The notes under the pieces: model-generated
What the model was told of the DNA's origin: nothing
The model's input: only the letters and a program-made list of their open reading frames with translations
Databases searched by the model: none
Program-made: the position numbers and the translations under genes
In this document: positions 203 through 12,700 of the stretch, one piece after another
Layout: every line of letters starts with the position of its first letter
Position numbering within the stretch: position 1 is the stretch's first letter
UHGV virus genome: UHGV-0853290
Reading direction: 5' to 3' (one strand)
Length of the DNA stretch: 12,700 bases
Origin: a virus

Positions 203-253
203 TGTGACATGTCACGATAGTTCCGTTTTGCACATCCCTGTGCCGCCGTTCTG

Positions 254-964: not shown

Positions 965-1120
965 GGTGGTTATCTCCACTTAGTGATTTTAATCACCACC
1001 GCAACGCCAATTACTGGTGGTGAACTGGACAAGGTTGGCGTACCGGCCTAAGTGGTACCGGCGTCCTTTCGGACCCCTGCCCAGCCCACCATAATTCGGA
1101 TATAGCTGTGCTTAACGCAT

Positions 1121-1143
1121 AAAAAAACCACGTCTGGCGTGGT
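1121..1143 (-). terminator. minus-strand intrinsic terminator or attenuator upstream of the antirepressor gene
   Basis: Stem ACCACG / CGTGGT (1127-1132 / 1138-1143) with a 5-nt loop, followed on the minus strand by U7 (rc of A7 at 1121-1127). Confidence 0.4.
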
Positions 1144-1233
1144 ATGCGCCACTTAGTAACTCGGGACGCCAATCCCGGCACTGGATTTTGCCAGTGCCTG
1201 ATTACTATGGCACAAGAGGAGTGCGATGTAAAT

Positions 1234-1248
1234 TTACCTCAAAGGTAA
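1234..1248. promoter_or_regulatory. box A palindrome TTACC-N5-GGTAA (copy 1)
   Basis: TTACCtcaaaGGTAA, perfect half-sites; same motif at 2755, 5365, 12558, 12620 and near-perfect at 1359 and 7539. Confidence 0.5.
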
Positions 1249-1277
1249 TAATAAATTCATAGCTCACGTTATTTCAA

Positions 1278-1290
1278 CCCTATGTGGTTT
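1278..1290 (+). promoter_or_regulatory. box B CCCTATGTGGTTT (copy 1)
   Basis: Lies 29 nt downstream of box A; near-identical 13-mers at 2798-2810 and 5410-5422 with similar spacing from a box A. Confidence 0.45.
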
Positions 1291-1326
1291 GATTGATCCC
1301 ATTTCAGAAAATACCTGCCTATTTTT

Positions 1327-1356
1327 TTGCCAGTATGCGTATACTTTCGATAGAAT
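1327..1356 (+). promoter_or_regulatory. sigma70-type promoter of the two-gene cassette
   Basis: -35 TTGCCA (1327-1332), 18-bp spacer, -10 TAGAAT (1351-1356); about 30 nt upstream of the ATG at 1386. Confidence 0.55.
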
Positions 1357-1358
1357 GT

Positions 1359-1373
1359 TTACCCTAGAGGTAG
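1359..1373. promoter_or_regulatory. box A-like operator TTACC-N5-GGTAG at the predicted transcription start
   Basis: TTACCctagaGGTAG immediately downstream of the -10 hexamer; one mismatch to the palindrome. Confidence 0.4.
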
Positions 1374-1385
1374 TTGGGGGTGCCC

Positions 1386-1901
1386 ATGAACACGAAGAGA
1401 GTTGCAGCGATGAGGCATAGACGCTTGACCTTGAAAAAGTCTGAAAAAGAAAAAGAGAAAAAGATGGTGATTGAAGCAGCCGCTTATGCTGCTGCCATAG
1501 CAACTGCCAATGCCATCAGGATTCATGATGAAGAAGTTGAGCAAAAATACCCGGTTATGTTCATCACTGAATACGACCAGCATGAGGCATTGTTAAAAAT
1601 CCGGGGCACATCTTTTGAAGGAATCTTGGCAGATAAGCTTCATCGTGCCTCATGTCAAACGAATATAATGCGACCTTACGAGTCAAGGCTAATCGAAACT
1701 GGACGCTCCAAGGATAAGCAGCAATTAGTTGAGATGATAAAGCGGTATTATAAGCCATCTTTTAAGCCTACAGCGTCACATGAGGTTGTAATGCGAGAAG
1801 TACCAAAGATGTCTGTTGAAAAATCGCATGCAATCTCGCGCAGGATGTTTGCACGCACTGCTGAAGATATGGCTCAGGAGCTCTACGACGATGCCGAATA
1901 A
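1386..1901 (+). CDS. hypothetical protein (171 aa), candidate antitoxin/partner of the downstream toxin-like gene
   Basis: ATG 1386 preceded by GGGGG; ORF open to TAA 1899-1901. Basic N-terminus (KRVAAMRHRRLTLKKSEKEKEKK) and acidic C-terminus (ELYDDAE). No family recognised. Its 3' end overlaps the start of the next gene by 11 nt. Confidence 0.6.
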   Translation: MNTKRVAAMRHRRLTLKKSEKEKEKKMVIEAAAYAAAIATANAIRIHDEEVEQKYPVMFITEYDQHEALLKIRGTSFEGILADKLHRASCQTNIMRPYESRLIETGRSKDKQQLVEMIKRYYKPSFKPTASHEVVMREVPKMSVEKSHAISRRMFARTAEDMAQELYDDAE

Positions 1902-2397
1902 ATTCCAGGGGTTGGTTCACCCTGGAATTTTTGGGAAGGACCCTGAGCTAATACCTATCAAAAACGCGTTCATAGATCACTGGCGCTACGGTCATCATAA
2001 GGATTTCGGAAAGGACACTCTGTTTCGGGATCCACCGAAAGAGATGCTGGAATATCACATACGCCACGTTCACGTAAACATCGGAAACTATACTGACAAG
2101 TTTGGTGAGAGCGGTACGGAACAATGCTGGAAAAACTGGGCATCCGGGAAGAAAGACAAGACCACCAACAAGCATAAAAAAATACCAACCAGTGATGTAT
2201 ATGTGATTTATCTTGTAACGTCTGAGCGACATGCGTTTCTTCTGGATTACTGGGATGAGCCAGCACACAAAAAAGTAGAAATTGACGAACAGAAACAAAA
2301 ACTTCTTGTCGAGTGTGACAGAATTTTGCGGCTGAAAAAGTTAGAATCCATGCCGCGCGATGCAAGTTTGTGGGACCCAGAATTTTACGACTGTTAA
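1891..2397 (+). CDS. YafO-family type II toxin-like protein (168 aa)
   Basis: ATG 1891 with AGGAG 10 nt upstream, overlapping the upstream stop. Motifs FGKDTLFRD, HIRHVHVN and VYVIYLVTSERHAFLLDYWDEPAHKK line up in order with my recollection of E. coli YafO (FGRDALYDD, HIHLAN, HLVYCQGAFDEQAWLLIAILKPEPHK). Confidence 0.55.
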   Translation: MPNKFQGLVHPGIFGKDPELIPIKNAFIDHWRYGHHKDFGKDTLFRDPPKEMLEYHIRHVHVNIGNYTDKFGESGTEQCWKNWASGKKDKTTNKHKKIPTSDVYVIYLVTSERHAFLLDYWDEPAHKKVEIDEQKQKLLVECDRILRLKKLESMPRDASLWDPEFYDC

Positions 2398-2398
2398 T

Positions 2399-2422
2399 GG
2401 CCGCTTTCGCGGCCTTTTCTTT
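2399..2422 (+). terminator. rho-independent terminator of the two-gene cassette
   Basis: Hairpin GGCCGCTTTCGCGGCC (2399-2414) followed by TTTTCTTT. The hairpin is the exact reverse complement of the one at 187-202. Confidence 0.7.
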
Positions 2423-2678
2423 ATGTGGTTTGTTTTCGTAATTGTTCGGCACAATAGTCGAGATGTGTTTGCAGATCCTGCATAGACATCTGCGAGCTGG
2501 TGACGTAGTTAATCAGTGCAGTCAGTTCGGCAAGTGGGCCATCGACATTAAATCCATCCTTATCGAGATCCCGGAGTAATTTCATCAAGTGCGATCCCTC
2601 CACCAGTGACCTGACGCCTCCCGGCGTGTGAATCCTTTCGGTAAATCCGTCTTCCAGTGGATAGTGATACTGCTGCAT
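2421..2678 (-). CDS. small KilAC/ANT C-terminal-domain protein (85 aa), paralog of the antirepressor C-terminus
   Basis: Start ATG at 2678 (MQQYHYPLEDG...) with GGAG 8 nt upstream. Aligns with the C-terminus of the 254-964 product (LAELT, DLQTH shared). The longer ORF-track version (to 2801) would run through the promoter and LexA box. Confidence 0.6.
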   Translation of the reverse strand: MQQYHYPLEDGFTERIHTPGGVRSLVEGSHLMKLLRDLDKDGFNVDGPLAELTALINYVTSSQMSMQDLQTHLDYCAEQLRKQTT

Positions 2679-2699
2679 CTTATCTTCTCCATGCAATAA

Positions 2700-2715
2700 C
2701 TGTATATTTATACAG
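2700..2715 (-). promoter_or_regulatory. LexA (SOS) box
   Basis: CTGTATATTTATACAG fits CTGT-N8-ACAG with an AT-rich centre; lies 22-37 nt upstream of the start codon at 2678. Confidence 0.65.
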
Positions 2716-2754
2716 TAGCAAATAATTTGTTTGCTATCCAGCACGTTTTGCAAA

Positions 2755-2769
2755 TTACCCGTAAGGTAA
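2755..2769. promoter_or_regulatory. box A palindrome TTACC-N5-GGTAA (copy 2)
   Basis: TTACCcgtaaGGTAA in the divergent intergenic region between the KilAC gene and the tailspike gene. Confidence 0.5.
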
Positions 2770-2797
2770 TATCTATTCTTATTCACATTCTTTCTAT

Positions 2798-2810
2798 CCA
2801 TATGTGGTTT
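2798..2810 (+). promoter_or_regulatory. box B CCATATGTGGTTT (copy 2)
   Basis: Lies 28 nt downstream of box A copy 2 and 64 nt upstream of the tailspike ATG. Confidence 0.45.
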
Positions 2811-2873
2811 TTAAGGTAATAAAATAACCGGATATGCGGCGCAACGGGTGCTGCGACTATCTGGAGATTTAAC

Positions 2874-4271
2874 ATGACGGTCTCAACCGAAGTTGACCAC
2901 AACGAATACACAGGTAACGGCGTTACGACATCGTTTCCGTATACCTTCAGGATTTTCCAGAAATCTGATCTGGTAGTACAAGTGGTTGACCTTGATGAAA
3001 ATATCACTGTTCTTGCTCTTGATACTGATTACGCAGTTACCGGGGCGGGAGGGTATAACGGTGGTAATGTAATTCTGTCGAAGGCGTTGGCTAACGGTTA
3101 TCAGATTTCTATATCTCGAGAGCTGCCGGTTACGCAGGAAACCGATCTGCGCAATCAAGGCAAGTTCTTTGCAGAGGTACATGAGGATGCGTTTGATAAG
3201 CTAACGATGTTGATCCAGCAGGTTAGAAGTTGGTTTAGCCTAGCGCTTCGCAAGCCATCATTCGTGGCAAACTATTATGATGCTCTGGGTAATTACATTC
3301 GCAATCTTCGTGACCCGTCACGACCTCAGGATGCGGCCACCAAGAATTATGTCGACTCTCTGGCAAATATTAACCTGTCGAGAACGTTGAGAACTCCAGA
3401 GGCAATACCTGAACTGCCTGGTGTAGAGCTGAGAAAAAATAAAATTGTAGCAATGGATAATGATGGCAATCCTATTATGGTATTGCCTGAATCAGGATCT
3501 GCTGCAGATGTTCTCATAGAGCTTGCAAAGCCAACTGGCGGCAGCCTGATTGGTTTACCTAACGGAACAGTGAGTGATGCAATTAATTATGTTACTCCAG
3601 AGATGTTTGGGGCAATAGGAGATGGTACTTTTCACGCTCTTTCTGAGCGTTTTGCGACACTGGCAGATGCGCAGGTTGTATACCCTCACGCCACATCACT
3701 TAGTCAGTCAATAGACTGGGCAGCAATGCAATCAGCTTTAAATTCTGGTTCTCAGACTCTGGATGTGAGTAAAGGAAATTATGTAGTAAACAGTAATTTA
3801 ACGGGAAACAAATCACTTCACTGGATCGGTGGAAGTGGTAAAAAGGTACAGATGATTGACGGATCTTTTATTCTTTTATCCGGGAGTCTTACTGCATTAC
3901 CTAAAATAACTGGCGGCATTAATCGCGTATCAAGGACGTTTACATTTGCATCTGTACCAGACTTATCAGCTGGCGATTCTTTTGTTGTATACAATCCGAC
4001 AGACTATAGTTGGTCTCATCACCGTGCCTACTACCGTGAAGGGGAGTTTTTCAAGGTTTTCAGCGCAACAGGAACCACGGTTAGCATCTACGGATTACCC
4101 TCGGATAATTATGTCGCCTCTGCGCTGGACGTTTATAAACTAAACGGAATTCGTGTTGTTCTTGATAATCTACACGTTGAAGGGGAAGACACATTAGATA
4201 GCGCACCTATAATTATCCGTTTCGGTCTTGATGTGGCGGTTAATAATTTTACCGGTAAAAAAATCAAATAA
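2874..4271 (+). CDS. tailspike/tail fiber protein, N-terminal fragment (T7 gp17-like N-terminal domain plus start of beta-helix), truncated by a frameshift
   Basis: ATG 2874 with GGAG 7 nt upstream. N-terminal pattern YTGNGVTTSFPYTF and NYIRNLRDPSRPQDAATKNYVDSL recalls the T7 tail-fibre N-terminal domain. Frame ends at TAA 4269-4271 just after an A7 run (4257-4263). Confidence 0.7.
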   Translation: MTVSTEVDHNEYTGNGVTTSFPYTFRIFQKSDLVVQVVDLDENITVLALDTDYAVTGAGGYNGGNVILSKALANGYQISISRELPVTQETDLRNQGKFFAEVHEDAFDKLTMLIQQVRSWFSLALRKPSFVANYYDALGNYIRNLRDPSRPQDAATKNYVDSLANINLSRTLRTPEAIPELPGVELRKNKIVAMDNDGNPIMVLPESGSAADVLIELAKPTGGSLIGLPNGTVSDAINYVTPEMFGAIGDGTFHALSERFATLADAQVVYPHATSLSQSIDWAAMQSALNSGSQTLDVSKGNYVVNSNLTGNKSLHWIGGSGKKVQMIDGSFILLSGSLTALPKITGGINRVSRTFTFASVPDLSAGDSFVVYNPTDYSWSHHRAYYREGEFFKVFSATGTTVSIYGLPSDNYVASALDVYKLNGIRVVLDNLHVEGEDTLDSAPIIIRFGLDVAVNNFTGKKIK

Positions 4272-5355
4272 TTATCAAATAGAGTTTGACCGTTGTTTTG
4301 GGGTTAATGTAAATACAGGTTCAGTAATAAACAATTCGCAAGGTTCTGATGAAGAATACGGGATTGTTATTTCAAACTGTACCGATGTTGTGGTTAATGG
4401 CGGTTCACATTACGCTAATCGCCACTGCATTGCAATTGGCGGACGAGGGGAAGTCTGCTCAATCCCTAACCGCAATATAAAAATTATTGGGGCTACTCTG
4501 CGTAACAATAGTGATGGGATTGGTGCTGCTGATATCCACGGAAACTCTGATAACATAGAATACTCCAACTGTGAATTATCATCAGCTAATATGGCTGGTC
4601 GTAACGTTAGGTACAAAAACTGCCGTATATTTCAAAGGCTGCGAGCAGACGGTTTATGTATTTACGGCTCTGAAATTGTCGGCGGGGTGTATGAAGTATC
4701 TAACTGCACTCTTATCACCCAGGGTGATCTCGACGCTTTTGGTGCTATAGCGTTGCAGGCTGCTAAGCCTATGAGAGAGAAATTCTCTCTCATAGTACGC
4801 AACATTACTGTTACTGGCGGTAATGGTGGCCCAAATGCAAAGTTAGTACATATCTTCTCTGCTGTTGGGGAAACACTCCCGATGGATGTTGATATCAGAG
4901 GAGTTCGCAATGAACTAACGGCGAGTATCGCAGTTCTTTACGCAAGACATACAACCAGCGCGGCAACCACGTTTATTTCCAATGGTTTCATTGTTGATGA
5001 TGTATACGGCCCACAAAATATGTATCTGGTGTATCCAAGTGGCACAGGTATTTCATCAATACCAACAAGGGAAATGGCACAAACAGGAAGCGTCACGATA
5101 ACATCGGCAGCAAATGCATTTAATACAGCTAGTGGCACTACGTCATTCAGGTACGGATACTCAAAGAAACCTAAATGCTCGTTTGGTGTTTCTTCGCCAA
5201 CAGGTTCGGCATTTACTAATCCTGGTCAGCCACCAGTGGCTCTCGCGTATAAGATATCAGGCACGGGTATCATACCAGCTATTACTGCGGCATCGGCATT
5301 CACAGCAGGTGTGGATGTTGATGTGAGCTGGAGCGTGAAAATATCTGACATTTAA
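4231..5355 (+). CDS. tailspike C-terminal fragment (right-handed beta-helix, depolymerase-like), in the +1 frame
   Basis: Frame open from 4228 to TAA 5353-5355; repeated Gly/Asn/Cys-rich beta-helix-like turns (VVNGGSHYANRHCIAIGG, NCTLITQG). Removing one A from the run at 4257-4263 fuses it to 2874-4271. Confidence 0.65.
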   Translation: MWRLIILPVKKSNNYQIEFDRCFGVNVNTGSVINNSQGSDEEYGIVISNCTDVVVNGGSHYANRHCIAIGGRGEVCSIPNRNIKIIGATLRNNSDGIGAADIHGNSDNIEYSNCELSSANMAGRNVRYKNCRIFQRLRADGLCIYGSEIVGGVYEVSNCTLITQGDLDAFGAIALQAAKPMREKFSLIVRNITVTGGNGGPNAKLVHIFSAVGETLPMDVDIRGVRNELTASIAVLYARHTTSAATTFISNGFIVDDVYGPQNMYLVYPSGTGISSIPTREMAQTGSVTITSAANAFNTASGTTSFRYGYSKKPKCSFGVSSPTGSAFTNPGQPPVALAYKISGTGIIPAITAASAFTAGVDVDVSWSVKISDI

Positions 5356-5364
5356 ATTTATCGT

Positions 5365-5379
5365 TTACCTTAATGGTAA
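5365..5379. promoter_or_regulatory. box A palindrome TTACC-N5-GGTAA (copy 3)
   Basis: TTACCttaatGGTAA, 10 nt after the tailspike stop codon. Confidence 0.5.
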
Positions 5380-5409
5380 AATTTATAACGGCTAACTTAA
5401 AATTTTAAT

Positions 5410-5422
5410 CCATATATGGTTT
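5410..5422 (+). promoter_or_regulatory. box B CCATATATGGTTT (copy 3)
   Basis: Lies 30 nt downstream of box A copy 3; followed 6 nt later by the -10-like hexamer TATGAT (5429-5434). Confidence 0.45.
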
Positions 5423-5483
5423 ATTGTGTATGATGAACTCACCAACTAAGGGGGTTCATTATGCACGGTAAACGGTGGTTTAT

Positions 5484-5888
5484 ATGTCAGCTCAGCTAAC
5501 CAGTGAGTCTTTAAATCAGTGGCTTAGCATGGGTTCTCTGGCTGCGGTTATCGCTGGGGTTCCTCCCGAGGTAGCTCTTGGTGCTTTATCAGGTGCGGTA
5601 ATATTTATTACCTCAGCCGTTGAGTATCCAATACGCCGCCGGGTTCTGCTGTCGATGCTCAGCTTTCTCTGCGGGCTTCTCTTCTACAAACCAACTGCAT
5701 CAATCCTTATCGGCTTAGCCAGCCTGATCCCAACTATCACGCAGGATTCATTCGAGAAAGGGATCGTCTTCTCTGCTGGCGCGTTCGTGTCGGCAATCGT
5801 CGCAGTACGTATTGGTATCTGGCTCTATCACCGTTCAGACAATCCACGCGATTTAATCCCGGGGAGAAAAGACGATGGTAACGCATGA
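5484..5888 (+). CDS. putative holin (three predicted transmembrane segments, charged C-terminus)
   Basis: ATG 5484 with GGTGG 5 nt upstream (GTG at 5475 is an alternative). Hydrophobic stretches LAAVIAGVPPEVALGALSGAVIFI, LLSMLSFLCGLLFY, IVFSAGAFVSAIVAVRIGIWLY. First gene of the lysis cluster. Confidence 0.55.
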   Translation: MSAQLTSESLNQWLSMGSLAAVIAGVPPEVALGALSGAVIFITSAVEYPIRRRVLLSMLSFLCGLLFYKPTASILIGLASLIPTITQDSFEKGIVFSAGAFVSAIVAVRIGIWLYHRSDNPRDLIPGRKDDGNA

Positions 5889-6182
5889 CCTTTTTTTACT
5901 ATCACCAATGCAGTTATTTGTACTGGCATAGCAATTCGCGTTGTCACTTTCCAGCGTAATGGATCTCAACACCGAAGATGGGGTGGGTGGATTGCTTATT
6001 TCCTGATTGTTGCTGCGGCCAGTATTCCTGTTCGTGTCGTTTATGCAATCTGGTTACGCACGCCAATGGCTGTGGATTTATCTGAGGTCATTATCAACGC
6101 TGTCATGCTTGCTGCGGTTATTAAAACGCGCGGTAACGTCGTTCAGATTTTCAAAATAACGAGGTCTAAACATGGAGATTAA
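5875..6182 (+). pseudogene. second small membrane protein of the lysis cluster (holin/antiholin-like), out of frame with its start codon
   Basis: ATG 5875 with GGGGAG 8 nt upstream gives only 18 codons. A hydrophobic frame with no start codon runs from 5889 to TAA 6180-6182. The two frames meet at a T7 run (5891-5897). Confidence 0.4.
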
Positions 6183-6798
6183 ACAATTCCAGCGAGCTGC
6201 TGGTATTAGCGAGGCGCTGGCCGCTCGCTGGTTCTCGCATATAACTTCTGCGATGAAAGAGTTTGGTATCAGCAAAGCAGAAGATCAGGCAATGTTTATT
6301 GCTCAAGTCGGGCATGAGTCTGGAGGCTTCACCCGGTTGCAGGAAAATTTCAACTACAGCGTCAGCGGACTGGCTAACTTCGTTCGGGCTGGGCGTCTCA
6401 CTCAGGGACAGGCTAATGCACTTGGTCGCCGTGCTGGTGAACCACCATTGCCACTCGAGCGCCAGAGAGCGATCGCCAATCTGGTGTACAGCAAACGCAT
6501 GGGGAACAATGCCTCTAGTGATGGCTGGAATTACCGTGGCCGCGGACTTATCCAGATTACCGGTTTGAATAACTATCGTGATTGCGGAAACGGCCTGAAA
6601 GTGGACCTGCTGGAGAATCCTGAACTGCTGGCGCAGGACGAATATGCGGCTCGTAGCGCGGCGTGGTTTTTCTCCAGCAAAGGCTGCATGAAGTATTCCG
6701 GAGATATTGTACGTGTAACTCTGATTATCAATGGTGGCAGGAACGGCATCGACGACAGGCGGGCGCGTTACTGTGCTGCTCGTAAGGCGCTGTTATGA
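6172..6798 (+). CDS. endolysin, glycoside hydrolase family 19 (chitinase-like) type
   Basis: ATG 6172 with GAGG 7 nt upstream. Motifs GHESGGF and [12 protein letters not shown] are as I recall for GH19 phage endolysins. Stop overlaps the next start (ATGA at 6795-6798). Confidence 0.75.
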
Positions 6799-6995
6799 TC
6801 TGGGCATTCGTAAAAGCATATTGGAAACAGTTGGTTATCATGGCGATCCTTGCTGTTCTGGTCATGTCAGGAGTTGTAGCCTGGAATGCACACGGCAGTC
6901 GTCAGTACGACGCCGGGTATGCGCAGGCGAAAGAAGACCGCAAAGCCGAAGAAGAAAAAGTTACGTCAGCACTACGAACAGGAGAAAGCGACTAA
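6795..6995 (+). CDS. i-spanin (Rz-like) N-terminal fragment with transmembrane anchor
   Basis: [30 protein letters not shown] is a single TMD; frame terminates at TAA 6993-6995, while the rest of an Rz-like protein continues in the +1 frame. Confidence 0.55.
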
Positions 6996-7278
6996 TGAAC
7001 GTGAAGCGCAGCAGAGGATCGATCAGGCGCGCAGCGATGCTCTTGATGCTGCCGCTCGCGCTGGCAGGTTGCAGCAACAGCTCGTTGCCATCCGTGAGCA
7101 GCTCAGGCAGTATAACGCCACTGTCGGCGCTGGGACGTCAGCCGCAGACACCGGGGTTTTGCTTGCCGACGTGCTCAGCAAATCTCTCGAGCGAAACAGA
7201 CAACTGGCAGAGTACGCTGACCGGGCATCCGAAGCCGGACGAGTCTGTGAAAAGCAGTACGATTCGCTGACCAGGTGA
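6886..7278 (+). CDS. i-spanin (Rz-like) C-terminal fragment (periplasmic coiled-coil part)
   Basis: Frame open 6886-7278; Rz-like sequence from about 6961 ([40 protein letters not shown] ... CEKQYDSLTR). Junction with the TMD frame is in the A-rich stretch GAAGAAGAAAAAG (6948-6960). Confidence 0.55.
   Translation: MHTAVVSTTPGMRRRKKTAKPKKKKLRQHYEQEKATNEREAQQRIDQARSDALDAAARAGRLQQQLVAIREQLRQYNATVGAGTSAADTGVLLADVLSKSLERNRQLAEYADRASEAGRVCEKQYDSLTR
6995..7270 (+). CDS. o-spanin (Rz1-like) outer-membrane lipoprotein, embedded in the +1 frame of Rz
   Basis: ATG 6995 with GGAG 10 nt upstream. Signal peptide with lipobox (MLLMLPLALAGCSN), Pro/Ser-rich mature part. Confidence 0.6.
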   Translation: MNVKRSRGSIRRAAMLLMLPLALAGCSNSSLPSVSSSGSITPLSALGRQPQTPGFCLPTCSANLSSETDNWQSTLTGHPKPDESVKSSTIR

Positions 7279-7289
7279 CATGGCATTTT

Positions 7290-7570
7290 TCATGGTACTG
7301 ATTTCCGGTGACGGTATATAAAACGGTACGGTAAAAATCTGTTTTTGGAAAGTTGTTACCAGTCAATTGGTTATGCTTACCGTAAATAATTGAGTGGGAA
7401 TGATTAACAGCTAACTCATAGCAACTCATTCCTATTCAGATACTAATTTAACCCTCTGTTTTTACAGAGGGTTTTTGTTTTTATGTATTCATTTCTATTC
7501 ACTCTACACCATATTTTTCTGCGGTACAGGTGACGGTATTACCTTAAAGGTATACTCTCATACCGTCATG
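7290..7570. other. attP-like region with clustered integrase arm-type repeats
   Basis: GGTGACGGTAT at 7307-7317 and again at 7529-7539; inverted copy ATACCGTCA at 7560-7568; further ACGGTA/CGGTAA units at 7323-7334 and TTACCGTAA at 7377-7385. Sits directly upstream of the integrase gene. Confidence 0.4.
7451..7482 (+). terminator. rho-independent terminator of the lysis operon
   Basis: Stem ACCCTCTG / CAGAGGGT with loop TTTTTA, followed by TTTTTGTTTTT. Confidence 0.8.
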
Positions 7571-10388: not shown

Positions 10389-11270
10389 TTACATAGATGT
10401 TTCGTTTAATTCTTCCCGACGAACGCTGTAAACGTCGGTGGCTTTTGCCAGCAGTTCGTCATCATCTGAAAGTTTTTGTGCAATGTATTTGTAAGCCTTA
10501 TCCAGTTCGGAGACAGTGCTGTAATTCATCGCTGCGCTGGTAAAGGCCATCAGCATTTCTTCTGGATCACGGCTATCCGCTTTACGCGTTTGCTCATCAG
10601 GCTTTTTCACTGTTTTAGCGTTGATCAGACTATTCATTCCCGCAGCCGTAGTTGTTTGCGGAGTAATGTCTCGTTCAACGCGCGGTGCCGTTTCCTGTAA
10701 TTCGTCAGGGGTGTAAACACCGAGAAGTACATCAGGAGCGTGCAGGCGAGCCCATCGTTTCGTGCAAAGATAGGCAAGCTGCTGGCGCGGATCCTGTTCC
10801 CACAATGGAGAGTTACGCACTCCGGCTTGCGCCATACTGATGGTAAGCTCACGGGGTTCTGCTTCTCCTTTAAGAACTGCTGACACAGTTACCGTCAGAT
10901 TCGGTGATTTATCTGTATTGCCGTTAACATTCGACCAGTCACCGCTCCAGCGATAATTCAGGCGTGTCGCTAGCAGGCTGGAAGAAGATACGACCGCGTT
11001 TACCAACTGTGCTTCGTAGCCTAACGTTCCGTTTACCACATGCGTTTTCTGCGCCACGGCGAAAGGGTTCATTCCCCACTGTGCCGCCTGCATGGTCACC
11101 GCCAGACAATCGGCAGGTTTGCCTTCAAGATGTTTCGGTACAGTCGCTTTGCTTTGTGACATCAACTCTGCGAAACGCACCAGTTGATTCATGCCCTCCG
11201 GGCTGAAGATTGCCGCAGCAGTACCTACAGTTGCGCCTGGTTGTGATGTGATTGCGATATCATTGCTCAT
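10389..11270 (-). CDS. RecT/Redbeta-family single-strand annealing protein
   Basis: ATG 11270 overlaps the upstream stop (ATGA). AAQWGMNPFAVAQKTHVVNG resembles the Redbeta/RecT core (lambda Bet, from memory, has ANQYGLNPW). Confidence 0.75.
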   Translation of the reverse strand: MSNDIAITSQPGATVGTAAAIFSPEGMNQLVRFAELMSQSKATVPKHLEGKPADCLAVTMQAAQWGMNPFAVAQKTHVVNGTLGYEAQLVNAVVSSSSLLATRLNYRWSGDWSNVNGNTDKSPNLTVTVSAVLKGEAEPRELTISMAQAGVRNSPLWEQDPRQQLAYLCTKRWARLHAPDVLLGVYTPDELQETAPRVERDITPQTTTAAGMNSLINAKTVKKPDEQTRKADSRDPEEMLMAFTSAAMNYSTVSELDKAYKYIAQKLSDDDELLAKATDVYSVRREELNETSM

Positions 11271-12106
11271 ACGTACATATCCTGTTTACGTGCCCAGTCA
11301 GGGCGTTTAATAATTTCCACTCCGCCCCACTCATCGTTGATGCGGCATTCGTGATAGGTATTCAGATCCCGGCGGAACAGAGCGTGCCCGGCATCGACAT
11401 CCGGAGCATCCAGCTCGAACACGCGTACCGGATATCGACCACAATCAATGCTTTCGCTCACGGCAAGAAAGAAAAAACCATGCGGCTGACCAGTAACCCT
11501 CATTGCGCCTTCGCGATACATTGCGTCCTGCACGTGGTAGCGGAATTCCTCGATGTGGCGTGCAAAACGGTCCATATCTGCAACCTTTTTCACGTCGACG
11601 ATCACGTTGTGCTCGTTCAGCCATTTGTCTGGACGAATGCGGCACAACTCACCAGTCTCTTCATCGTTCCAGTACATTGATGCTTCGCAGTAACCAGGTG
11701 CTTCCAGCATCCAGCGTGCCGCCGGGTGAGCCATTGCGCTATCACGCATCAGCTCCAGTTTCCGCCACTGCTCGGCATCAAGTACCGTAATCCCCATATC
11801 CGCTACATCACGAAGAAATGCTTCTTCGTCAGCTTTACCTTGTTTCGTCCGACGATCGAACTTTGGTGAAACAATGAAGCGTTTGTCGAATTCTCCAGGT
11901 TCCAGAAGCAGACAGTGCAGAGCAGTACCCATGTCCAGTGCAGATTTCTTCTCTTCGTCTTCTGGTGCTGCCTGAACCCATTTAAGAAGCGCCGGATTCT
12001 TGGCAACCATGTCCAGTTGCGACTTACTCACGCCGTCACCGGCGTGGTAGTCATCGTTGCTGATGTCGAATAAATTCCCGGTTTCATGCCGCGTCCCTCT
12101 GTCCAT
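11267..12106 (-). CDS. PD-(D/E)xK exonuclease (RecE/YqaJ/exonuclease VIII-like partner of RecT)
   Basis: ATG 12106 (TTG 12109 alternative). Motifs GTALHCLLLE, RIRPD, IVDVKKV, YHVQDAMY fit a RecB-like nuclease fold; directly upstream of and coupled to the annealing protein. Confidence 0.7.
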   Translation of the reverse strand: MDRGTRHETGNLFDISNDDYHAGDGVSKSQLDMVAKNPALLKWVQAAPEDEEKKSALDMGTALHCLLLEPGEFDKRFIVSPKFDRRTKQGKADEEAFLRDVADMGITVLDAEQWRKLELMRDSAMAHPAARWMLEAPGYCEASMYWNDEETGELCRIRPDKWLNEHNVIVDVKKVADMDRFARHIEEFRYHVQDAMYREGAMRVTGQPHGFFFLAVSESIDCGRYPVRVFELDAPDVDAGHALFRRDLNTYHECRINDEWGGVEIIKRPDWARKQDMYV

Positions 12107-12383
12107 CAAGCTGATCCGCCAGATCCCAGCGGGCGATAATTGCCATTGCCTCGCGCCGGTAGGAATCCATCAGTTCTTCGAACTCAGGGCTGTCTTTAGC
12201 TGCTTCCAGCACTTCCTGGCGAACGCCTTTGCCTGTTACAACGTCGAAAGCTGAGGCCAGTTGATGAAGCCGGATACTCTCAATCAGTTCGACTTGTCGG
12301 TCATATAGCTGTTCTGACAGGCGGTAGTCCTTGTCGAATGCCAGCATGATTTTTTGAAGATTTTTCTGCTGATTAACGTTCAT
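12084..12383 (-). CDS. hypothetical protein (99 aa)
   Basis: ATG 12383 with GGGAGGG upstream (ATG 12398 alternative); overlaps the exonuclease start by 23 nt. No family recognised. Confidence 0.5.
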   Translation of the reverse strand: MNVNQQKNLQKIMLAFDKDYRLSEQLYDRQVELIESIRLHQLASAFDVVTGKGVRQEVLEAAKDSPEFEELMDSYRREAMAIIARWDLADQLDGQRDAA

Positions 12384-12385
12384 TA

Positions 12386-12538
12386 TCAGCCCTCCCATAT
12401 CTCGTTATCGTTGGCCACATCTCGAGCTTCTTTGCTGACGAAAGCCCACTTAATACCTTCCTGTAAGGTGCGGAACTTCCAGCTCATGAATCCGCATGCA
12501 GTAACGCAGTACCAACCGTTGATGATTTTCCACTGCAT
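12386..12538 (-). CDS. hypothetical small protein (50 aa), first gene of the minus-strand early operon
   Basis: ATG 12538 with AGGT 7 nt upstream; ends TGA 12386-12388 next to the following start. Below the ORF-track cutoff. Product MQWKIINGWYCVTACGF... Confidence 0.35.
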   Translation of the reverse strand: MQWKIINGWYCVTACGFMSWKFRTLQEGIKWAFVSKEARDVANDNEIWEG

Positions 12539-12557
12539 AACTTGTTACCTCGGTTTG

Positions 12558-12572
12558 TTACCGTCGAGGTAA
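12558..12572. promoter_or_regulatory. box A operator TTACC-N5-GGTAA overlapping the early promoter -10/+1
   Basis: TTACCgtcgaGGTAA; nested in a larger inverted repeat TTACCTCG-N12-CGAGGTAA (12545-12572). Confidence 0.5.
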
Positions 12573-12600
12573 TGATTATGCGTATCTGGTTTGATGTCAA
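12572..12600 (-). promoter_or_regulatory. sigma70-type early promoter (minus strand)
   Basis: On the minus strand: -35 TTGACA (rc of 12595-12600), 17-bp spacer, -10 AATCAT (rc of 12572-12577); about 35 nt upstream of the start at 12538. Confidence 0.45.
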
Positions 12601-12619
12601 TAGATATGAGTTAAAAAAA

Positions 12620-12634
12620 TTACCCATAAGGTAA
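12620..12634. promoter_or_regulatory. box A operator TTACC-N5-GGTAA upstream of the early promoter -35
   Basis: TTACCcataaGGTAA, 19 bp upstream of the -35 hexamer. Confidence 0.5.
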
Positions 12635-12641
12635 TCTTGCT

Positions 12642-12671
12642 GGCAATAAAAAAGCCGCCATGAGGCGGCTT
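12642..12671 (-). terminator. rho-independent terminator for a minus-strand transcript entering from the right
   Basis: Stem AGCCGCC / GGCGGCT with loop ATGA; on the minus strand it is followed by TTTTTTATTG. Confidence 0.7.
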
Positions 12672-12700
12672 ACTTACTGAAAAATATGATTTTATTTTTG

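What the first reader, a model, noticed from the sequence alone, without database searches (positions are those of the whole stretch)
1234..5422. Recurring composite motif: TTACC-N5-GGTAA palindrome followed about 30 bp later by CCATATRTGGTTT, three copies upstream of plus-strand units
The pair occurs at 1234-1248/1278-1290 (before the toxin cassette), 2755-2769/2798-2810 (before the tailspike) and 5365-5379/5410-5422 (before the holin), with 28-30 bp between the boxes each time. Box A also occurs alone at promoter-proximal positions (1359-1373, 12558-12572, 12620-12634, and imperfectly at 7539-7553), and a box B-like TATGTGGTTTG sits at 2422-2432. Seven copies of a 15-bp palindrome with fixed spacing are unlikely by chance in 12.7 kb. 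I do not recognise it as the site of a known enterobacterial or phage regulator. Inference: it marks the regulon of an unidentified phage-encoded dimeric DNA-binding protein; box B may be an activator site or unusual promoter element for late or accessory genes.
Basis: partly seen in the sequence, partly recalled or inferred. Interest (0 to 1): 0.7.

Follow-up and report, generated by a model that had tools for sequence, protein, structure and literature searches.

The report
Known phage repressor operators plus promoter dyad
The repeated 15-bp palindrome is the already-described operator of the Rep repressor of epsilon15/phiV10-like phages, placed at almost every promoter, while the second box is a conserved 14-bp dyad inside those promoters whose binding partner is still unknown.

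Summary
Box A (TTACC-N5-GGTAA) occurs 7 times in the window against 0.24 expected, and box B follows it after 29, 28 and 30 bp at three loci. The window comes from an epsilon15/phiV10-like (Uetakevirus) temperate podophage.

Box A is not an unknown site. The epsilon15 RefSeq record annotates the same ATTACC-N5-GGTAAT sequence as "repressor" binding sites at homologous positions. It fills the rep-cro and pL regions, and the cognate repressor is a homolog of the structurally solved Rep of phage SPC32H (PDB 5D50). Each genome has 13-18 copies, essentially all at promoters.

Box B is a genuine 14-bp dyad (AACCATA|TATGGTT), enriched in intergenic DNA (6 against 0.24). It is conserved at 7 promoter classes across the genus and always lies inside or against a core promoter (about -41 to -19). 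It sits about 2, 4 or 5 helical turns from a box A. Its binder is unresolved; Cro and gp55 are disfavoured.

The first copy (1234-1290) belongs to leftward promoters of an isrK/C4/Bro-N antirepressor module, not to the "toxin cassette".

Verdict: a known regulon with a modestly interesting unexplained companion element.

The parts
1234..1248 (.). Box A (Rep operator), perfect. It lies at about +1 of a predicted leftward promoter (TTGAAA 1277-1272, TATTAT 1253-1248). It is 1 nt upstream of the -35 of the predicted isrK promoter (TTTACA 1232-1227).
1278..1290 (.). Box B copy (CCCTATGTGGTTT). It abuts the -35 of the leftward promoter. Its 11 bp TATGTGGTTTG (1281-1291) is repeated at 2422-2432, flanking the inserted moron.
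1327..1356 (+). Predicted sigma70 promoter of the two-gene moron (TTGCCA-18-TAGAAT).
1359..1373 (.). Box A (1 mismatch) covering the predicted start site of the moron promoter. It is 125 bp centre-to-centre from the box A at 1234.
2419..2431 (-). Box B-like sequence that is the 3' coding end (KQTT plus stop) of the small antirepressor gene (2678->2421). It is not an independent regulatory box here.
2700..2715 (.). LexA box CTGTATATTTATACAG in front of the small ant gene.
   Evidence: Sequence. The LexA control of ant in SPC32H is recalled from Kim and Ryu 2013, which is not held in the library.
2755..2769 (.). Box A, perfect. It is centred about -70 from the predicted tailspike promoter start and 1 nt from TTGCAA (2748-2753), a possible -35 for leftward ant transcription.
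2798..2810 (+). Box B at the tailspike promoter. Its 5' part is the -35 hexamer position (TCCATA 2797-2802; TTCATA in most lineages).
2820..2825 (+). Predicted -10 hexamer of the tailspike promoter (TAAAAT; TAGAAT in relatives).
5365..5379 (.). Box A, perfect, centred about -69 from the predicted lysis-operon start. It lies in DNA that is not homologous between relatives, yet it recurs 30-32 bp before box B in most lineages examined.
5410..5422 (+). Box B at the lysis (holin) promoter, with a perfect CCATATATGG core. It marks the left edge of the conserved lysis module.
5429..5434 (+). Predicted -10 hexamer of the lysis promoter (TATGAT; TATAAT in phiV10). There is no recognisable -35.
7539..7553 (.). 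Box A (1 mismatch) overlapping the -10-like TATACT (7551-7556) in front of the integrase gene. It is nested in the inverted repeat TGACGGTAT / ATACCGTCA.
12558..12572 (.). Box A, perfect, at the start site of the leftward early promoter pL (TTGACA 12600-12595, AATCAT 12577-12572).
12580..12592 (.). Degenerate box B core inside the pL spacer (perfect in Tyrion; absent from the Salmonella lineages).
12620..12634 (.). Box A, perfect, centred about -62 from pL and 62 bp from the box A at 12558. It lies next to the terminator that ends rep.
12692..12700 (-). Last two codons and the stop codon of the rep (repressor) gene, which continues beyond the window edge.
   Evidence: collinear with phiV10 rep 32087-32671

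Best explanation
The composite is the standard promoter-control cassette of epsilon15/phiV10-like phages.

Box A (ATTACC-N5-GGTAAT) is the operator of the prophage repressor Rep, and by inference also of Cro. Instead of one immunity region that controls a cascade, these phages place the operator at almost every transcription unit. In this window those are pL, the integrase promoter, both antirepressor promoters, the moron, the tailspike promoter and the lysis promoter. Outside the window they include PR/Prep, terS, gp06, gp42 and gp45. Rep can therefore silence each unit directly.

Where box A overlaps the core promoter (pL, int, moron, PR), simple occlusion is enough. At the tailspike, lysis and head promoters, box A sits too far upstream (about -70 or -82) to block RNA polymerase. 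There the core promoter carries box B, a 14-bp dyad (AACCATA|TATGGTT) on the same DNA face, about 4 or 5 helical turns away.

The most likely mechanism is that box B is an auxiliary, lower-specificity operator-like site, and that A-bound tetrameric Rep, or a partner protein, also engages it. That would bend the 28-40 bp of unconserved spacer DNA and cover the -35 region.

Shown: the identity, enrichment, placement, conservation and phasing of the boxes. Inferred: the transcription start sites, Rep occupancy of each site, and everything about who binds box B.
For: Box A is the Rep operator:
- The epsilon15 RefSeq record annotates 'protein_bind repressor' at 7 positions, and all read ATTACC-N5-GGTAAT.
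- Two or three copies fill the rep-cro intergenic region and two or three flank pL in every genome.
- It is the most enriched palindrome in three Rep clades.
- Rep's recognition helix NLVNRW is invariant.
- phiV10 Rep matches PDB 5D50 at E = 4e-42.
- PMC9638917 reports that Rep binds palindromic DNA sites as a tetramer.
- All 14 phiV10 copies are intergenic, which is 6.5% of the genome.

Cro also reads box A-type sites: phage pOW20-A has a Cro homolog but an unrelated repressor, and its operators are ATACC-N5-GGTAT.

Box B:
- It is a dyad, with near-invariant C5, G12, G13 and T15 in 43 instances from 7 promoter classes.
- It is enriched in intergenic DNA.
- It is retained in a Klebsiella phage whose Rep is only 45% identical.
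- It always lies in the RNA polymerase contact zone of a predicted promoter.

Geometry:
- A-B centre distances are 19.5-20.5, 40.5-43.5 or 52.5 bp. The long ones have phase about 0 at 10.5 bp per turn.
- 76 of 78 unique tailspike promoters keep an identical A-to--10 length although the gap sequence is scrambled.
- In most lineages, box A upstream of the lysis promoter recurs at 30-32 bp in non-homologous DNA.
Against: - No binding data for this phage were accessible. The primary Rep papers (PMC3807360, PMC4983836) and the epsilon15 genome paper (PMC2698709) are not held.
- Box B differs from box A. Its ACC/GGT cores are 1 bp further apart and the outer bases differ, and no N6-spaced TTACC/GGTAA variants exist. 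Rep's N-terminal domain pair is therefore not an obvious reader of B.
- Rep's two HTH domains show no sequence similarity.
- Box B is missing from pL in the Salmonella lineages, so it is dispensable there.
- In the tailspike promoter the best-conserved part of B coincides with a plausible -35 hexamer, so part of its conservation may be ordinary promoter function.
- All start sites are predictions. The window has fewer consensus promoter matches than its shuffles (11 against 18).
- The distance statistics rest on only about 6 independent promoter classes.
Confidence: 0.55

Rival explanations
1. Box B is the site of a separate, still unidentified dimeric regulator (phage early or middle protein, or a host factor) that works as a temporal switch. 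It would activate the late-type promoters that lack a good -35 (tailspike, head, lysis; B centred about -27 to -30). It would shut down early promoters where B lies in the spacer (pL, P_gp45). Box A would be only the Rep/Cro operator nearby.
For: - The lysis promoter has a conserved -10 but no -35, and B lies 19 bp before the -10 in all lineages, including an otherwise unrelated module in EC.W1-9.
- Lysis and virion genes normally need delayed expression (established phage biology).
- The dyad symmetry implies a dimer.
- B is unlike A in spacing.
Against: - No candidate protein emerged.
- gp55 homologs occur in ZF40 and Chlobot without box B, and gp55 instead travels with a different palindrome, GTGACATGTCAC.
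- Cro appears to read box A-type sites.
- gp42 belongs to a family that is widespread in lytic phages.
- Positions of -19.5 and -26.5 are unusual for activators.
- The tight phasing of B with A has no role in this model.
Confidence: 0.22
2. Box B is not a protein site of its own. It is ordinary promoter sequence: a -35 hexamer TTCATA plus spacer at late promoters, and spacer DNA at early ones. The copies look alike because the phage's promoters descend from one another and act as recombination joints between modules.
For: - In an unbiased set, the conserved part of B at the tailspike promoter is tTCATAT, 17 bp from TAGAAT, while the 3' TGGTT is only moderately conserved.
- pL and P_gp45 are clearly paralogous designs.
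- Mosaic breakpoints fall at B: lysis-module homology starts at 5401-5409, and the moron is inserted at TATGTGGTTTG with an 11-bp duplication.
- One B-like copy is simply coding sequence.
Against: - Dyad symmetry with near-invariant C5/G12/G13/T15 across 7 classes is not expected of an asymmetric -35 or of spacers.
- At P_gp42 and the leftward antirepressor promoter, B lies upstream of a separate good -35.
- At the lysis promoter B cannot be the -35, because it would be only 14 bp from the -10.
- B has been conserved over long divergence while the flanks are scrambled.
Confidence: 0.15
3. The upstream box A copies (centred about -60, -62, -70 and -82) are activator positions. Cro, or Rep, bound there would stimulate the weak promoters by contacting RNA polymerase in the manner of a class I activator, so the composite would be an activated rather than a repressed promoter.
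For: The predicted positions resemble the helical-face series used by class I activators such as CRP (-61.5, -71.5, -82.5; established knowledge).
Against: - The positions depend on unverified start sites.
- The same box A overlaps core promoters elsewhere, which is a repressor arrangement.
- Nothing links Cro or Rep to activation.
- This model does not explain box B.
Confidence: 0.06
4. One reading: box A is the site of an unknown regulator unrelated to the prophage repressor.
For: None beyond the absence of direct binding data for this particular phage.
Against: - The annotated repressor sites in epsilon15 are identical.
- The sites cluster in the rep-cro and pL regions.
- The motif is absent from phages that lack the Rep/Cro module.
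Confidence: 0.02

Closest known systems
Rep repressor / operator system of Uetakeviruses (epsilon15 gp38, SPC32H Rep; PDB 5D50 and 5D4Z)
   Same: - The operator sequence is the same (ATTACC-N5-GGTAAT).
- The positions are the same (pL, tail fibre, terS, gp3, gp24 upstream regions) as annotated in NC_004775.2.
- The relatives collinear with the window encode a Rep that is 42-45% identical to the Salmonella and Klebsiella Reps, with an identical recognition helix.
- The small LexA-controlled Ant gene with its LexA box is present in the window.
   Different: - The window's phage additionally carries a Bro-N antirepressor behind isrK/C4 RNAs, and a two-gene moron with its own box A.
- Box B and its phasing with box A are not annotated in any record I could read.
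Phage P1 C1 repressor with operators dispersed over the genome, and the P1 immI (c4 RNA / ant) region (own knowledge, plus the Rfam C4 hit)
   Same: - One repressor directly controls many scattered transcription units.
- A C4-type antisense RNA precedes an antirepressor gene.
   Different: P1 operators are asymmetric 17-mers read by a different protein. Here the operator is a palindrome read by an HTH protein that works as a tetramer.
Mycobacteriophage L5/L1 repressor with many sites ('stoperators'); PMC1934351 describes binding to multiple asymmetric operators
   Same: - There are many repressor sites per genome.
- The two box A copies placed between a leader terminator and terS could act as a roadblock.
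   Different: The L5 sites are asymmetric, orientation-dependent and lie within transcription units. Box A is symmetric and lies at promoters.
Cooperative binding of lambda CI to operators separated by integral helical turns (own knowledge: Hochschild and Ptashne 1986)
   Same: The site pairs lie about 4, 5, 6 and 12 turns apart on one face of the helix.
   Different: In lambda both sites are the same kind of operator. Here the partner of box A is often the dissimilar box B.
Promoters in which a factor site replaces the -35 (T4 MotA box at -30; P1 late promoters with a dyad near -22; own knowledge)
   Same: The tailspike, head and lysis promoters combine a -10 hexamer with a conserved element centred at about -27 to -30.
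   Different: Box B also occurs at -41 and -19.5 in promoters that have good -35 hexamers. No MotA/AsiA-like or Lpa-like factor was identified.

Membership tests
Rep (SPC32H / epsilon15 gp38) operator regulon | Operator sequence ATTACC-N5-GGTAAT, as annotated for epsilon15 | tested here: met
   All 7 window sites match TTACC-N5-GGTAA with at most 1 mismatch. The epsilon15 annotated sites read the same.
Rep (SPC32H / epsilon15 gp38) operator regulon | The genome encodes a Rep homolog next to pL | tested here: met
   The window ends in the last codons of rep (12692-12700, minus strand). Window 10986-12699 is collinear at 92% identity with phiV10 up to 32094, inside rep 32087-32671. That Rep matches PDB 5D50 at E = 4e-42. 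The gene body itself lies outside the window.
Rep (SPC32H / epsilon15 gp38) operator regulon | Operators flank the early promoters of the immunity region | tested here: met
   pL has box A at its start site and at about -62. The rep-cro region of all relatives holds 2-3 copies. PR itself lies outside the window.
Rep (SPC32H / epsilon15 gp38) operator regulon | Rep physically binds the sites and Ant releases it | not testable with these tools
   Only secondary descriptions are available (PMC9638917, PMC9986798). The primary papers are not held.
P1 C1-type dispersed operators | Asymmetric 17-bp operator | tested here: not met
   Box A is a perfect inverted repeat. The P1 operator form is recalled from memory.
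Fixed-position -35-replacing activator box (T4 MotA-like or P1 late-promoter-like) | Constant distance of the box from the -10 hexamer in all regulated promoters | tested here: not met
   The box B centre lies at about -41 (P_gp42, leftward antirepressor promoter), -29.5 (tailspike, gp06), -26.5 (lysis) and -19.5 (pL, P_gp45). These positions rest on predicted -10 hexamers.
gp55 (phrog_536) late-regulator target | The motif co-occurs with the gene in other phage backbones | tested here: not met
   ZF40 and Chlobot carry the gene but no box B. A different palindrome, GTGACATGTCAC, follows the gene in all 8 genomes examined.
Cro operator distinct from the repressor operator | Box B present where Cro must act (PR/Prep), and Cro relatives associated with B-like sites | tested here: not met
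   No conserved box B lies in the rep-cro region. The Cro homolog of pOW20-A sits beside ATACC-N5-GGTAT operators, which are box A-like.

The most novel reading that the evidence does not exclude
Box B is a second class of operator that a different DNA-binding surface reads together with box A. One candidate surface is the XRE-type HTH inside Rep's C-terminal domain, the domain that tetramerises and is the target of the antirepressor. One Rep tetramer would then clamp a bipartite A+B operator across 2, 4 or 5 helical turns, and Ant would release both contacts at once. Alternatively, B belongs to an undiscovered early-to-late switch protein of this phage genus.
Probability: 0.2. Interest if true: 0.55.

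Novelty: new member of a known kind. Interest (0 to 1): 0.3.

Why it matters
- Annotation: the palindrome can be labelled as the Rep operator. It shows that in this phage group one repressor sits at nearly every promoter, including both antirepressor promoters, integrase, tailspike, lysis and an accessory cassette. This is a flat control scheme unlike the lambda cascade.
- Engineering: phiV10-like phages are used as reporter and typing phages for E. coli O157. It helps to know which short elements control tailspike and lysis expression.
- Open point: box B is a conserved dyad with strict phasing to the operator and no known binder. Resolving it would show how late genes are timed in a genus for which I found no late-gene control described.

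Tried and rejected
- Primary literature: Kim and Ryu 2013, Kim et al. 2016 and Kropinski et al. 2007 are not held. Text searches for the motifs returned nothing.
- Covariation test for Rep and box A: impossible. Every phage on this backbone has a Rep with the same recognition helix and the same box A.
- gp55 as the box B binder: rejected.
- Cro as the box B binder: disfavoured.
- gp42: uninformative, because its family is widespread in lytic phages.
- Rep N-terminal and C-terminal HTH paralogy: none detectable.
- Sigma54, extended -10, IHF, CRP and DnaA-box readings of box B: considered by eye against remembered consensus sequences. None fits, and none was formally tested.
- Leftward promoters inside the A-B gap as a general explanation of the 28-30 bp spacing: this holds only for the 1248-1277 copy. 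The hexamers in the tailspike and lysis gaps are weak and not conserved.
- 'Toxin cassette': no support from Pfam, PHROGs (both unknown function), NCBIfam or PADLOC.

Full report
**What the window is.** The 12.7-kb window matches epsilon15/phiV10-like temperate podophages (genus Uetakevirus) over about 70% of its length at 92-95% identity. The matches include phiV10, EC.W1-9 and vB_EcoP_ZX5. By collinearity with annotated relatives and by domain searches, it holds the following features in order:
- a small membrane-protein gene (19-180);
- a Bro-N antirepressor gene on the minus strand (964->254);
- a two-gene accessory cassette of unknown function (1386-2397);
- the small antirepressor gene ant (2678->2421);
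- the tailspike gene (2874-5355, interrupted);
- the lysis genes (about 5484-7270);
- attP and the integrase gene (to 8851);
- the leftward early operon (12538->8848);
- the last codons of the repressor gene rep at the right edge.

TTACC-N5-GGTAA occurs at exactly the seven stated positions, five perfect and two with one mismatch. Shuffles predict 0.24. CCATATRTGGTTT occurs at the three stated positions, and the gaps to box A are 29, 28 and 30 bp. Whole genomes of six relatives have 13-18 box A copies against 0.35-0.8 expected. Two unrelated temperate phages have 2 and 0, none of them at promoters. In phiV10 all 14 copies lie in the 2.5 kb of intergenic DNA, where 0.14 are expected. This counts the two copies directly before the likely terS start codon as intergenic.

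**Box A is a known site.**
- The RefSeq record of epsilon15 carries 'protein_bind: repressor (lysogeny)' features before terS, gp3, the tail fibre gene, pL (three copies) and gp24. Every one reads ATTACC-N5-GGTAAT.
- In all relatives two or three copies fill the rep-cro intergenic region and two or three flank pL.
- An unbiased palindrome count puts TTACC-N5-GGTAA first in phiV10, SPC32H and the Klebsiella phage BUCT711. The repressors of these three are only 42-45% identical but share the helix NLVNRW.
- The phiV10 repressor matches the crystal structure of SPC32H Rep (5D50) at E = 4e-42.
- Citing papers report that Rep binds palindromic sites as a tetramer and is taken off the DNA by the small antirepressor Ant (PMC9638917, PMC9986798).
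- I could not read the primary papers.

Cro probably reads the same sites. The only Cro homolog outside the genus, in Psychrobacter phage pOW20-A, sits beside an unrelated CI-type repressor, and its operators are ATACC-N5-GGTAT.

**How box A sits at each promoter in the window (start sites are predictions).**
- pL is TTGACA-17-AATCAT (12600->12572). One box A lies on the start site and one is centred near -62.
- The integrase promoter has box A over a TATACT hexamer.
- The accessory cassette has its own promoter TTGCCA-18-TAGAAT (1327-1356), followed at once by box A at 1359.
- The box A at 1234 belongs to leftward transcription. Rfam finds an isrK-type sRNA (1197->1121) and a P1-type C4 antisense RNA (1096->1013) between it and the Bro-N antirepressor gene.
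- The predicted promoter TTTACA-17-CATAGT (1232->1204) puts the start at about 1197, which is the 5' end of isrK. Box A lies one base upstream of its -35.
- A second predicted leftward promoter, TTGAAA-18-TATTAT (1277->1248), exactly fills the A-B gap.
- The box A at 2755 is likewise one base from TTGCAA on the ant side, and a LexA box (2700-2715) lies before ant.
- At the tailspike and lysis promoters, box A is centred near -70 and -69. That is too far upstream to block RNA polymerase on its own.

**Box B is real, is a dyad, and is not explained.**
- Forty-three instances from seven promoter classes give aAnyCATATAtGGTT, the dyad AACCATA|TATGGTT. C5, G12, G13 and T15 are nearly invariant.
- In phiV10 intergenic DNA it occurs 6 times against 0.24 expected.
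- It is kept at homologous promoters even in BUCT711.
- An unbiased sample anchored on box A and the -10 region shows that 76 of 78 distinct tailspike promoters have the same length while the 28-bp gap is scrambled in 15 lineages. There the best-kept part of B is tTCATAT, a -35 hexamer 17 bp from TAGAAT.
- At the lysis promoter B starts 19 bp before TATGAT/TATAAT, so it cannot be the -35. This geometry survives in an otherwise unrelated module of EC.W1-9.
- At P_gp42 and at the leftward 1277 promoter, B abuts the upstream side of a good -35.
- At pL and P_gp45, which are the same design (A, 19 nt, TTGAyW, 5 nt, B core, -10, A), B lies inside the spacer. Salmonella lineages have a different pL spacer without B.
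- B therefore always lies in the polymerase contact zone but at different registers (about -41, -29.5, -26.5 and -19.5).
- Its centre is 19.5-20.5, 40.5-43.5 or 52.5 bp from a box A. The long distances are in phase at 10.5 bp per turn. Box A pairs are 17-18, 30-31, 62 or 125 bp apart. Only about six promoter classes are independent, so this is suggestive rather than proof.

**Who binds box B.**
- gp55 is a small protein with a Cys cluster, encoded just before terS. I rejected it for two reasons. Its homologs in ZF40 (66% identical) and Chlobot (89%) come without box B. And in all eight genomes the gene is followed within a few bases by a different palindrome, GTGACATGTCAC.
- Cro is disfavoured by the pOW20-A comparison and by the lack of a conserved B in the rep-cro region.
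- gp42 is a widespread small domain and gives no information.
- Rep remains the simplest candidate. It is the only phage regulator present in a lysogen, it is tetrameric, and B is always phased with its operator.
- Against Rep: B's half-sites are one base further apart than those of A, no such variants of A exist, and Rep's two HTH domains are not detectably related.
- I therefore hold 'auxiliary operator used together with A-bound Rep' as the best explanation with moderate confidence. The rivals are 'separate switch protein' and 'plain promoter sequence'.

**Evolutionary footprints.**
- The B-like copy at 2419-2431 is the coding end of ant (KQTT plus stop), which is conserved in relatives.
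- Tyrion's single TTATGTGGTTTG aligns to both 1280-1291 and 2421-2432. The accessory cassette (about 1292-2420) is therefore an insertion at that sequence with an 11-12 bp duplication.
- Homology of the lysis module starts at 5401-5409 in five relatives, just before box B. The box A upstream lies in non-homologous DNA yet is present 30-32 bp away in most lineages (in EC.W1-9 only a GGTAA half-site remains), which argues for selection on the pair.

**Verdict.** The motif is genuine, but its main component is an already annotated repressor operator in a characterised phage genus. The residual novelty is box B and its phased pairing with the operator. I could not find this described in any record or open paper available to me.

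Noticed in passing
window 1013-1197 (minus strand): Rfam finds an isrK-type Hfq-binding sRNA (1197->1121, 67 bits, ending at terminator 1143-1127) and a P1-type C4 antisense RNA (1096->1013, 66 bits) directly upstream of the Bro-N antirepressor gene (964->254). This is a P1 immI-like RNA-controlled antirepressor module inside an epsilon15-like podophage. It comes in addition to the small LexA-controlled Ant.
   Followed up: partly
window 204-215; phiV10 L001 39101, 2262, 19493; ZF40 L007 14944; Chlobot L008 17494: A 12-bp palindrome, GTGACATGTCAC, lies within a few bases after the stop codon of the gp55-family gene (Cys-cluster 'transcriptional regulator', phrog_536) in all eight genomes examined, on three unrelated backbones. 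Further copies sit next to the terminators after terL and at the end of the virion operon (the window copy). Upstream of terS it is followed by a -10-like hexamer, a leader terminator and two box A copies. That layout resembles a Q/pR'/tR' arrangement.
   Followed up: partly
window 1292-2420: The two-gene accessory cassette (phrog_9503 and phrog_1651, both of unknown function; no Pfam, NCBIfam or PADLOC hit) is an insertion flanked by the 11-bp direct repeat TATGTGGTTTG (1281-1291 and 2422-2432). It has its own promoter, its own box A and a terminator (2399-2414). Nothing supports calling it a toxin cassette.
   Followed up: partly
window 4228-4271: The tailspike reading frame is split. ORFs 2874-4271 and 4228-5355 overlap at a run of seven A (about 4258-4264). 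This could be a frameshift, a pseudogene or a sequencing error.
   Followed up: no
window 2700-2715: A perfect LexA box, CTGTATATTTATACAG, lies in front of the small ant gene. This matches what I recall for SPC32H, where LexA controls Ant.
   Followed up: no
window 7531-7568: The box A at the integrase promoter is nested in a 9-bp inverted repeat, TGACGGTAT / ATACCGTCA. The epsilon15 record annotates GTGACGGTAT-type sequences as integrase binding sites and the hairpin as an RNase III site.
   Followed up: no
window about 7390-7406: The sequence attgagtgggaatgatt equals the attP core reported for phage vB_EcoP_ZX5, which integrates at the 3' end of guaA (PMC9782041).
   Followed up: no
L162 (Psychrobacter phage pOW20-A) 1282-1296 and 2140-2215: A marine Psychrobacter phage with a CI-type repressor and a Cro homologous to the Uetakevirus Cro uses operators ATACC-N5-GGTAT. 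These have nearly the same core as box A.
   Followed up: partly
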